Of a DNA stretch of 14,104 bases, positions 3,792 to 4,117 are shown one piece after another. This DNA is from a virus. Location of the stretch: the UHGV virus genome UHGV-0325397. The stretch is one strand, 5' to 3'. How positions within the stretch are numbered: the stretch's first letter is position 1; every line of letters starts with the position of its first letter. The notes under the pieces were generated by a model, which was given only the letters and a program-made list of their open reading frames with translations, did no database searches and was not told where the DNA came from. Both the position numbers and the translations under genes were made by a program.

Positions 3792-3950
3792 TTATGGCGA
3801 TACCAGAGAGCTTTCTGCGTGTACATGCGTCTCTGTAACTTGCTCTCCTTCACTGTGGTTGCAAGTGACATGAATATCTCCTTCGTTACCGATTAATTCT
3901 TTCATCTGACGAATGAATTCTTCGTCTGACCAGTTATCTGTAAAACTCAT
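3792..3950 (-). CDS. Small hypothetical protein (52 aa) at the position lambda uses for kil
   Basis: ATG at 3950 overlaps the stop of the cIII-like gene (ATGA), suggesting translational coupling; sequence MSFTDNWSDEEFIRQMKELIGNEG...; not similar to lambda Kil as I remember it. Confidence 0.35.
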   Translation of the reverse strand: MSFTDNWSDEEFIRQMKELIGNEGDIHVTCNHSEGEQVTETHVHAESSLVSP

Positions 3951-4117
3951 GGACGGCCTTGTTGTTTCAAAATATCCCAAAGCTTTTCGAGCAAACTTTT
4001 CATTCTTGGTTGTTTAAAGTCTGCTCCGGTTAAAATATTTTTTCGTGAATGCTGCACCGATAAAATCGGGTTGAAAGGGCGAACCGATGCCGCCCCTGCA
4101 ATAGCGAACTGTTGCAT
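3947..4117 (-). CDS. cIII: cIII-like small protein (56 aa); ORF not in the supplied track
   Basis: ATG at 4117 preceded by AAGGAG with 6 nt spacing; translation MQQFAIAG...EKLWDILKQQGRP resembles lambda CIII ends (MQYAIAG...KRLIDILNQPGVP, from memory); flanking DNA resembles the lambda cIII/tL2 region. Confidence 0.5.
   Translation of the reverse strand: MQQFAIAGAASVRPFNPILSVQHSRKNILTGADFKQPRMKSLLEKLWDILKQQGRP

What the first reader, a model, noticed from the sequence alone, without database searches (positions are those of the whole stretch)
3792..4117. Two translationally coupled small ORFs missed by the ORF track
A 56 aa ORF (3947-4117) has a strong AAGGAG RBS and cIII-like termini (MQQFAIAG..., ...LWDILKQQGRP) but a divergent middle; lambda CIII acts by inhibiting the FtsH protease. 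Its stop overlaps the ATG of a 52 aa ORF (3792-3950) in the position lambda uses for kil. The kil-position ORF is a candidate novel cell-division or host-physiology modulator.
Basis: partly seen in the sequence, partly recalled or inferred. Interest (0 to 1): 0.45.

Follow-up and report, generated by a model that had tools for sequence, protein, structure and literature searches.

The report
Divergent cIII plus small recombination-module genes
The two small overlapping genes are real but already catalogued: the first is an unusual version of the lambda lysogeny factor CIII, and the second is a known phage mini-protein of unknown function (identical to Shigella phage Sf6 gp30) that heads the recombination genes and does not stand in for the cell-division inhibitor Kil.

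Summary
Observation confirmed. On the minus strand, ORF1 (4117-3947, 56 aa, AAGGAG-N6-ATG) ends in an ATGA overlap with ORF2 (3950-3792, 52 aa).

ORF1 sits at the true cIII locus, behind a lambda-like tL1 hairpin and cIII leader. It is homologous to CIII at profile level (hhalign 94%; PHROG 550 E 1e-22) and under purifying selection (pN/pS 0.32). Its central helix region is rebuilt, and no family member hits Pfam Lambda_CIII. It is a third, untested sequence class of CIII.

ORF2 is 100% identical to Sf6 gp30 (HK97 gp42.1 / HK022 p38 family). In 59 of 98 sampled loci it lies downstream of a bona fide kil, so it is not a kil replacement. kil is simply absent here. Only its N-terminal ~20 residues (WSDEEFIRQMKELI) are constrained (pN/pS 0.19).

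ORF2 and ORF3 occupy the slot P22 uses for arf, directly upstream of the annealing-protein gene. ORF2 shares only an [FW]SDEEFI motif with Arf. An accessory recombination role is inferred, not shown.

Ordinary lambdoid mosaic content. Modest interest.

The parts
4185..4202 (-). tL1-like hairpin at the end of gene 17 (the scan called this inverted repeat on the + strand). With 4118-4184 it forms the cIII leader.
   Evidence: Nearly identical to the sequence upstream of lambda cIII in the alignment. Hairpin found.
4118..4184 (-). cIII-type 5' leader, including the hairpin at 4150-4169 and the AAGGAG Shine-Dalgarno sequence at 4124-4129
   Evidence: Alignment with the lambda, HK97 and P22 cIII leaders. 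Hairpin. RNA fold z = -2.1.
3947..4117 (-). ORF1: divergent (third-class) cIII allele, 56 aa
   Evidence: PHROG 550 E 1e-22. hhalign against canonical CIII gives 94%, E 1.4e-7. 0 of 12 family members hit Pfam Lambda_CIII. pN/pS 0.32. AlphaFold2 predicts a helix at 37-54.
3792..3950 (-). ORF2: Sf6 gp30 / HK97 gp42.1 / HK022 p38 family mini-protein, 52 aa, start overlapping the ORF1 stop (ATGA)
   Evidence: 100% identical to Sf6 gp30. PHROG 2123 E 6.6e-42. Divergent homologues in L214/L246 and L247.
3891..3932 (-). Conserved core of ORF2 (codons 7-20, WSDEEFIRQMKELI), the only part of ORF2 under protein-level constraint
   Evidence: pN/pS 0.19 over codons 2-20. Alignment A9. AlphaFold2 predicts a helix at 9-20, at low confidence.
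3792..3871 (-). 80-nt overlap of the ORF2 tail with the ORF3 5' end. The ORF3 frame is the constrained one.
   Evidence: pN/pS is 0.22 in the ORF3 frame and 1.37 in the ORF2 frame. Within E. coli, 10 sites are synonymous in ORF3 and non-synonymous in ORF2, against 2 the other way.
3701..3871 (-). ORF3: Sf6 gp29 / HK97 gp42 family, 56 aa, with its own AAGGAG (3878-3883) 6 nt before the ATG. It ends 8 nt before the annealing-protein gene.
   Evidence: PHROG 1723 E 9.4e-36. Relatives down to 44% identity with a conserved NQRYFLGxxPF C-terminus. pN/pS 0.27.
2985..3692 (-). Rad52-like single-strand annealing protein (context: head of the recombination module)
   Evidence: Pfam Rad52_Rad22 E 5e-26.

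Best explanation
The interval is the junction between the lysogeny-control genes and the recombination module of a lambdoid early-left (PL) operon. It holds three small genes, not two.

(1) ORF1 is the phage's cIII allele. It sits behind a lambda-type tL1 hairpin, cIII leader and SD sequence. It keeps the CIII N-terminus (MQxFAIAG) and C-terminal helix end (LxDILxQxGxP). Its middle is rebuilt and 13 residues longer than in a short canonical CIII (37 versus 24 residues between the conserved ends). Most likely it still works as CIII does, as a small amphipathic peptide that competitively inhibits FtsH/HflKC and so stabilises the phage's CII. That step is inferred.

(2) ORF2 is a real gene of the Sf6 gp30 / HK97 gp42.1 / HK022 p38 family. 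It is probably translated by termination-reinitiation at the ATGA shared with whatever gene lies upstream, either kil or this cIII type. Its functional unit is a short acidic amphipathic N-terminal helix (W-[ST]-D-[DE]-x-F-I-R-[QL]-M-[KN]-[DEK]-[LM]-[IL]). The rest is a variable, unconstrained tail that overprints the start of the next gene.

(3) ORF3 (Sf6 gp29 / HK97 gp42 family) is a conserved 56-aa protein that always lies directly upstream of the recombinase gene.

ORF2 and ORF3 fill the slot between kil and the single-strand annealing protein, which P22 fills with arf. They are most likely accessory factors of the phage recombination module (inferred from position, co-inheritance and a shared [FW]SDEEFI motif). 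kil is absent from this phage, and ORF2 does not replace it.
For: ORF1:
- The leader and SD sequence are almost identical to lambda's cIII leader.
- PHROG 550 (CIII) E 1e-22.
- Family-versus-family hhalign gives 94% probability, E 1.4e-7.
- pN/pS 0.32.
- A CII homologue is present in the window (PF05269, E 1.2e-41).
- Of the five lambda residues whose alanine substitution gives a cIII- phenotype (PMC1838920), four align to the same or a conservative residue: S17/S20, L26/M39, R27/K40, R32/K45.

ORF2:
- 100% identical to Sf6 gp30.
- In 98 loci sampled through the ORF2 N-terminus, the upstream gene is HK97-type Kil in 59 and ORF1-type cIII in 39, always with an ATGA overlap.
- A divergent homologue, found independently through ORF3 (L214 = Pseudocitrobacter L246), keeps the N-terminus with saturated synonymous change: pS 0.97, pN 0.18.
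- An Atlantibacter homologue follows Kil with an ATGA overlap.
- Tails differ (35, 52, 56 and 60 aa forms) according to the downstream module.
- pN/pS of the tail frame is 1.37.

ORF3:
- The family reaches 44% identity.
- It lies next to Erf, Rad52-like, other annealing proteins or a P-loop protein.

arf slot:
- P22 gene order is c3-kil-arf-erf.
- Arf also precedes a 235-aa annealing protein in ST104-type phages (PMC4837284).
- Arf aids recombination but is not essential for it (PMC12315714).
- PHROG 2445 (Arf) gives E 0.037-0.06 for three ORF2 forms.
- One public record names a family member 'accessory recombination function protein'.
Against: ORF1:
- No member of the family reaches Pfam Lambda_CIII, even at E 10.
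- Pairwise similarity to lambda CIII is not significant (tblastn E 2.4).
- The region essential and sufficient in lambda (residues 14-37) is the one that is altered.
- The best amphipathic stretch is weaker than in canonical CIII: hydrophobic moment 0.67, against 0.90 for lambda and 0.82 for HK97.
- The AlphaFold2 model is low confidence (pLDDT 59.7).

ORF2 and Arf:
- hhalign probability is only 1.7-3.4% (P 0.013-0.029).
- No hit to Pfam PF17585.
- The similarity is one short acidic motif.
- ORF2 accompanies four different recombinase types, so its partner need not be the recombinase.
- Within E. coli the N-terminus shows no selection signal: 5 synonymous against 18 non-synonymous changes, with a neutral expectation of 37:197. 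The DNA is almost invariant, so this test has little power.
- More distant relatives have ORF3 without any ORF2, so ORF2 is dispensable for the module.

No experiment on any of the three proteins was found.
Confidence: 0.6

Rival explanations
1. One reading: ORF2 is a Kil-like or otherwise novel host cell-division or physiology modulator that takes over the kil position.
For: In this window ORF2 is the gene immediately after cIII, overlapping its stop, as kil is in lambda. No kil homologue exists anywhere in the window, so a substitute is conceivable. Small early-left-operon proteins are often host modulators (general knowledge).
Against: ORF2 co-occurs with an intact Kil, and lies downstream of it, in Sf6, HK97, HK022, mEpX2, N7 and 59 of 98 sampled loci. 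hhalign against Kil gives 0.1% probability. There is no PHROG or Pfam Kil hit. ORF2 is strongly acidic, unlike the Kil sequences read here, which carry several Lys/Arg. It is not novel, being identical to Sf6 gp30.
Confidence: 0.08
2. ORF2 has no protein function. It is an incidental or purely 'relay' reading frame in a conserved mosaic junction sequence. Its first ~50 nt are kept as a recombination linker, or only to pass ribosomes on from cIII or kil.
For: The first 50 nt are identical at the DNA level across four tail forms and two upstream contexts. Within E. coli, 5 changes are synonymous and 18 non-synonymous, close to neutral. The tail is unconstrained. Frameshifted, fused, truncated or IS-disrupted copies are common in databases. 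Distant relatives couple ORF3 directly to the upstream gene without ORF2.
Against: Against the Pseudocitrobacter-type homologue, synonymous sites are saturated while the amino-acid sequence is kept (pN/pS 0.19). Pseudocitrobacter against Atlantibacter gives pS 0.92 and pN 0.07 (the Atlantibacter locus was found with a pattern, so that comparison is biased). ORF3 has its own strong SD sequence, and the ORF2 stop lies 80 nt past the ORF3 start, which is not a relay geometry.
Confidence: 0.15
3. ORF1 is descended from cIII but no longer inhibits FtsH. The rebuilt middle gives it another target, or it is a decaying allele.
For: The essential 14-37 helix of lambda CIII is interrupted by a roughly 10-residue insertion. 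No Pfam hit. Weaker amphipathic moment. This allele never occurs together with kil (39 of 39 loci), which hints at a different regulatory package.
Against: Purifying selection holds over the whole length, with invariant F15, T30, Q52, P56 and near-invariant A32-D33-F34. The allele is widespread, in 213 of 5426 complete E. coli genomes with the full segment, and also in Salmonella, Enterobacter, Atlantibacter and Buttiauxella. A CII gene is present. HK022-class CIII is also very divergent (29-32% identity to lambda), yet Kobiler et al. (PMC1838920) treat it as a CIII class.
Confidence: 0.25
4. ORF2 and ORF3 are expressed as one fusion protein by programmed frameshifting. HK97 gp42.1 (83 aa) would be the hard-wired form.
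For: HK97 gp42.1 reads ORF2 for about 43 codons (tblastn aligns residues 1-49) and then continues in the ORF3 frame. At least eight different 81-82-aa fused variants exist in databases.
Against: A +1 shift is needed, and no slippery or prfB-like site is present in the overlap (read directly). ORF3 has its own AAGGAG-N6-ATG. Fusion junctions are scattered and mostly single records, as expected from random 1-nt deletions in prophages. The ORF3 N-terminus is conserved as a separate start in distant relatives.
Confidence: 0.04

Closest known systems
Lambda CIII / HK022 CIII (FtsH inhibitor; Pfam PF02061, PF08134; PHROG 550)
   Same: Same locus, leader, SD sequence and first codons. Conserved N-terminal xAIAG motif and C-terminal LxDILxQxGxP motif. 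Small size. A CII gene in the same genome. Profile homology.
   Different: The central region (essential in lambda, residues 14-37) is rebuilt, and the segment between the conserved ends is 13 residues longer than in a short canonical CIII (37 versus 24 residues). No Pfam hit. A shorter and weaker predicted amphipathic helix. Never followed by kil. Not one of the two classes described by Kobiler et al. 2007 (PMC1838920).
Shigella phage Sf6 gene 30 protein / HK97 gp42.1 / HK022 p38 (PHROG 2123, labelled 'recombinase' without evident basis)
   Same: ORF2 is 100% identical to Sf6 gp30, and overlaps the gp29 homologue in the same way.
   Different: Here it follows a cIII allele directly rather than kil. 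HK97 carries an in-frame fusion with the next gene.
P22 Arf (accessory recombination function; Pfam PF17585; PHROG 2445)
   Same: Same slot between kil and the annealing-protein gene. Small and acidic. Shared N-terminal [FW]SDEEFI motif.
   Different: No significant homology (hhalign probability 3.4% or less; no Pfam hit). The most conserved part of Arf (EEEVEQQINLAAERQN) has no counterpart in ORF2. Here the slot holds two overlapping genes.
Lambda / HK97 Kil (FtsZ-directed division inhibitor; PHROG 2055, 3924, 2461)
   Same: Only the position immediately after cIII, in this particular window.
   Different: No sequence similarity. Opposite charge character. ORF2 coexists with Kil in most relatives.

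Membership tests
CIII (lambda / HK022 classes) | Match to the curated Pfam models Lambda_CIII (PF02061) or cIII (PF08134) | tested here: not met
   0 of 12 ORF1-family members match at E up to 10, whereas 5 of 5 canonical CIII proteins match.
CIII (lambda / HK022 classes) | Detectable homology to canonical CIII proteins | tested here: met
   hhalign of the ORF1 family against canonical CIII gives probability 94%, E 1.4e-7. PHROG 550 E 1e-22. Pairwise tblastn alone is not significant (E 2.4).
CIII (lambda / HK022 classes) | Position: first gene after the tL1-type hairpin and cIII leader in the early-left operon, in a genome that encodes CII | tested here: met
   Leader alignment with lambda. 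Operon context. CII PF05269 E 1.2e-41.
CIII (lambda / HK022 classes) | Central ~24-residue amphipathic helix (lambda residues 14-37), essential and sufficient for activity | tested here: inconclusive
   Only the C-terminal half aligns, and a roughly 10-residue insertion interrupts it. Predicted helix at 37-54, pLDDT about 81 for residues 41-50. Hydrophobic moment 0.67 against 0.90 for lambda. 4 of 5 functionally critical lambda residues are conserved or conservatively replaced.
CIII (lambda / HK022 classes) | Inhibits FtsH/HflKC and stabilises CII | not testable with these tools
   Needs expression and CII-stability or FtsH assays.
Kil (septation inhibitor) | Sequence membership in a Kil family | tested here: not met
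   ORF2 against Kil: hhalign 0.1%. ORF3 against Kil: 0.3%. ORF1 against Kil: 0.2%. No Kil PHROG or Pfam hit. No Kil-like sequence in any frame of the window.
Kil (septation inhibitor) | Occupies the slot directly after cIII as an alternative to other kil alleles | tested here: not met
   ORF2 lies after kil, not in place of it, in 59 of 98 loci and in Sf6, HK97, HK022, mEpX2 and N7.
P22 Arf | Match to Pfam PF17585, or significant profile similarity | tested here: not met
   No Pfam hit for 8 ORF2-family members. hhalign probability 1.7-3.4%. PHROG 2445 E 0.037-0.06 only.
P22 Arf | Small gene between kil and the annealing-protein gene | tested here: met
   P22 map compared with the window, Sf6 and mEpX2 maps.
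P22 Arf | Stimulates Erf-dependent recombination | not testable with these tools
   Genetic assay needed. Arf's own mechanism is unknown (PMC12315714).
Sf6 gp30 / HK97 gp42.1 / HK022 p38 (PHROG 2123) | Full-length sequence match | tested here: met
   PHROG 2123 E 6.6e-42 over residues 1-52 of 52. 100% identity to Sf6 gp30.
Sf6 gp29 / HK97 gp42 (PHROG 1723), for ORF3 | Full-length sequence match and position immediately upstream of the recombinase gene | tested here: met
   PHROG 1723 E 9.4e-36. Context in 80 + 28 loci.

The most novel reading that the evidence does not exclude
ORF2, together with P22 Arf, may define a class of phage mini-proteins whose whole function resides in a ~14-residue acidic-aromatic N-terminal helix ([FW]-S-D-E-E-F-I...). 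That helix would dock onto a host DNA-metabolism factor, for example as a mimic of the acidic SSB tail (DFDDDIPF), and so assist recombination whichever annealing protein the phage carries. The tail would be free to evolve and would have been born by overprinting ORF3. Separately, the ORF1-type CIII, which never coexists with kil, might be a CIII with a changed or broadened target.
Probability: 0.12. Interest if true: 0.55.

Novelty: new variant of a known kind. Interest (0 to 1): 0.3.

Why it matters
ORF1 would be a natural third sequence class of CIII, in which the segment thought essential for FtsH inhibition has been rebuilt. Testing it would sharpen what FtsH actually recognises in this inhibitor.

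ORF2 and ORF3 are widespread. Part of the segment occurs in 1118 of 5426 complete E. coli genomes, and the full segment in 213. They are uncharacterised mini-proteins sitting at the head of Erf, Rad52-like and RecT/RecE modules. If they are accessory recombination factors like Arf, they could matter for understanding, and improving, phage annealing-protein-based recombineering.

The ORF2/ORF3 pair is also a clean small example of overprinting, with one constrained and one free reading frame. None of this is surprising for lambdoid phages, and nothing here suggests a new kind of system.

Tried and rejected
1. An eyeballed 'helix-GD-helix' resemblance of ORF3 to Kil. Rejected: hhalign 0.3%.
2. 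ORF3 against Arf. Rejected: 0.1%.
3. ORF1's central insert as a hidden Kil. Rejected: 0.2%.
4. Programmed frameshift joining ORF2 to ORF3. There is no slippery site, ORF3 has its own SD sequence and ATG, and the fusion junctions are scattered.
5. Polymorphism test within E. coli and Salmonella for ORF2 coding constraint. It was uninformative because the first 50 nt are almost invariant. It was superseded by the comparison with L214/L246.
6. AlphaFold2 of ORF1 (pLDDT 59.7) and of a natural ORF2-ORF3 fusion (pLDDT 49.9). Both were too poor for fold searches, so none were run.
8. Searching viral contigs with the 50%-identity ORF3 relative P0179 found nothing.
9. Literature searches for gp42.1 and for the three peptide sequences found nothing. 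Poteete 1991 is not held.
10. Rfam: no family in the window.
11. NCBIfam: nothing meaningful for the three ORFs. ORF1 and ORF3 had no hit, and ORF2 had one chance-level hit (NF038358, E 0.058, 12 bits against a 545-bit cut-off).

Full report
CONTEXT. The window is a mosaic lambdoid phage or prophage. It has an integrase at the left end and an early-left operon on the minus strand. That operon runs repressor 6046-6687, N-like 5543-5701, three unknowns, gene 17 (superinfection exclusion) 4193-4600, the interval in question, a Rad52-like annealing protein 2985-3692, SSB 2478-2984 and Abc2 2171-2464. On the plus strand lie cro, a CII homologue, and the replication and nin genes. The best-matching phages are N7, mEpX2 and HK140, each covering only part of the window.

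OBSERVATION. ORF1 runs 4117-3947 (56 aa), with AAGGAG 6 nt before the ATG. ORF2 runs 3950-3792 (52 aa), and its ATG overlaps the ORF1 TGA (ATGA). It has an identical AAGGAG-N6-ATG signal, overlaps ORF2 by 80 nt in another frame, and ends 8 nt before the annealing-protein gene.

ORF1 IS A DIVERGENT cIII.
- The 130 nt upstream (hairpin at the end of gene 17, leader hairpin, SD sequence, first two codons) are almost base-for-base those of lambda cIII. This is therefore the cIII locus.
- ORF1 matches PHROG 550 (CIII) at E 1e-22.
- I collected the family: 47 clusters, down to about 60% identity, in E. coli, Salmonella, Enterobacter, Atlantibacter and Buttiauxella. One record is named 'phage regulatory protein CIII'.
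- A profile-profile comparison with lambda, P22, Sf6 and HK97/HK022 CIII gives 94% probability, E 1.4e-7. The termini align and there is a roughly 10-residue insertion in the middle.
- None of 12 members hits Pfam Lambda_CIII, whereas all 5 canonical proteins do. Pairwise similarity to lambda CIII is not significant.
- Against a Pseudocitrobacter-type homologue, ORF1 has pS 0.87 and pN 0.28, so it is a gene under selection.
- Kobiler et al. (PMC1838920) describe two CIII classes (lambda, HK022). They place the essential, sufficient region at residues 14-37, an amphipathic helix, with S17A, R24A, L26A, R27A and R32A giving a cIII- phenotype. In the hhalign alignment four of these five align with S, M, K and K, and R24 aligns with P37.
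- AlphaFold2 gives a low-confidence model (pLDDT 59.7), with a helix at 37-54 as its best part.
- The best amphipathic stretch has a hydrophobic moment of 0.67, against 0.90 for lambda and 0.82 for HK97.
- So homology and position are shown. FtsH inhibition is a reasonable inference that needs testing.
- In 39 of 39 sampled loci with this allele, no kil follows it.

ORF2 IS NOT A KIL SUBSTITUTE.
- ORF2 is 100% identical to Sf6 gene 30 protein. It belongs with HK97 gp42.1 and HK022 p38 (PHROG 2123, E 6.6e-42; the PHROG label 'recombinase' has no visible basis).
- In Sf6, HK97, HK022, mEpX2 and N7 the order is cIII - kil - ORF2 - ORF3 - annealing protein.
- In 98 IMG/VR loci retrieved through the ORF2 N-terminus, the upstream gene is HK97-type Kil in 59 and ORF1-type cIII in 39. 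The overlap is always ATGA.
- ORF2 has no similarity to Kil, and no Kil-like sequence exists anywhere in the window.
- kil is therefore absent, and ORF2 is the next gene down.

IS ORF2 A REAL GENE?
- Within E. coli, Salmonella and Shigella the first 50 nt are identical in four forms that differ only in their tails. These are 52 aa as here, 56 aa, a very common 35-aa acidic form that precedes a 103-aa protein and RecT/RecE modules, and HK97's 83-aa in-frame fusion with ORF3.
- The little variation there is looks neutral: 5 synonymous to 18 non-synonymous changes, against a neutral expectation of 37:197.
- In the overlap, the changes are silent in ORF3 and not in ORF2: 10 sites against 2.
- The decisive comparison came from more distant relatives of ORF3. 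One of them, L214 (the same sequence as Pseudocitrobacter faecalis L246), has ORF1-type cIII, a GTGA overlap, and then VSIADTWTDDAFIRLMKDLISEDKENE... overlapping an ORF3 homologue.
- Over codons 2-20, synonymous sites are saturated (9.5 differences over 9.8 sites), while pN is 0.18.
- An Atlantibacter prophage has Kil, an ATGA overlap, and MNTPVKDWSDDAFIRLMKDLLKPEKKEQEKQQ.
- Thus the N-terminal ~20 residues are conserved as protein (core W-[ST]-D-[DE]-x-F-I-R-[QL]-M-[KN]-[DEK]-[LM]-[IL]).
- The tail is free: pN/pS is 1.37 in the ORF2 frame and 0.22 in the ORF3 frame over the same bases.
- Still more distant relatives have cIII, a 35-41-aa kil-position gene, then ORF3 ATGA-coupled directly, with no ORF2. 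In L231/232 an ORF1-type cIII is coupled directly to ORF3.
- ORF2 is therefore a lineage-restricted addition.

ORF3.
- ORF3 belongs to a well-conserved family (Sf6 gp29 / HK97 gp42; PHROG 1723). Invariant residues are S10, A21, R25, L37, E43, F50, P55 and F56.
- It always lies directly upstream of the recombinase. That recombinase can be Erf, Rad52-like, another annealing protein, or a P-loop protein.
- It is unrelated to Kil or Arf.
- Many database entries carry 1-nt deletions that fuse the ORF2 N-terminus to the ORF3 C-terminus. I read these as mutations in prophages rather than programmed frameshifting.

FUNCTION.
- The slot between kil and the annealing-protein gene is where P22 has arf. 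Arf also precedes the 235-aa annealing protein in ST104-type phages (PMC4837284).
- Arf aids recombination, is not essential for it, and has no known mechanism (PMC12315714).
- ORF2 shares [FW]SDEEFI with the Arf N-terminus. The statistics are weak, however: PHROG 2445 E 0.04; hhalign P 0.013, probability 3.4%; no Pfam PF17585 hit.
- I therefore file ORF2 as an Arf-slot gene that may work like Arf, not as an Arf family member.

VERDICT. The cIII idea is right in outline. The kil idea is wrong. All three genes are already present in public annotations as hypothetical proteins, or as 'CIII' through PHROGs. What is mildly new is threefold: recognition of a third CIII sequence class with a rebuilt core; the N-terminal-only constraint of ORF2; and its overprinted tail.

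Noticed in passing
window 3701-3871 (-): A third small gene (Sf6 gp29 / HK97 gp42 family, PHROG 1723) has its own AAGGAG-N6-ATG and overlaps ORF2 by 80 nt. It is conserved down to 44% identity and always lies directly upstream of a recombinase of varying type. Its function is unknown.
   Followed up: yes
HK97 L010:1501-1752; proteins P0054, P0061, P0064, P0070, P0077, P0085, P0092, P0095, P0102: Recurrent natural fusions of the ORF2 N-terminus to the ORF3 C-terminus (76-83 aa) have junctions at many different positions in the overlap. They are most simply explained as 1-nt deletions, with a 2-nt longer reading frame in HK97.
   Followed up: partly
window 2478-2984 (-): The phage SSB carries the acidic partner-binding tip DFDDDIPF internally, followed by 15 more residues ([15 protein letters not shown]). 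In E. coli SSB (from memory) this motif is the extreme C-terminus.
   Followed up: no
window 4193-4600 (-), hairpin 4525-4546: The 135-aa gene 17 ORF is probably over-extended. The Pfam GP17 match starts at residue 33, and a terminator-like hairpin with a T-run (matching HK97's putative terminator) lies upstream of Met33 (ATG at 4504). The N-terminal MSLVTKQEPTCSDYW... peptide recurs in relatives attached to other genes.
   Followed up: partly
L061 (IMGVR_UViG_2545824708_000010), about 1390-1425: The end of an IS200/IS605-type TnpB-like gene abuts the fourth codon of ORF2, removing its start. ORF3 is intact.
   Followed up: partly
L228-L239, position -103..+4 relative to ORF3: Distant relatives carry a 35-aa gene (MDIVKALQLLAVDARRVGNNDLFQVAFCLFYRGSK) in the kil position, ATGA-coupled on both sides. 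It has no PHROG hit.
   Followed up: partly
L231/L232, -172..+4 relative to ORF3: A 58-aa ORF1-type cIII relative (MIISIRGGTSMGAASKNGILYIQHHPSNRLSSASFEPPRSKKSLWQQFIELINLRLEP) has no PHROG hit at E up to 0.1 and is directly coupled to ORF3. This shows that this cIII class is older and more diverse than the E. coli copies suggest.
   Followed up: partly
L244:1289-1597, L242:986-1297: A 103-aa acidic protein (PHROG 3486, unknown function) follows the 35-aa ORF2 form and precedes RecT/RecE-type modules. An Atlantibacter homologue sits in the same place.
   Followed up: no
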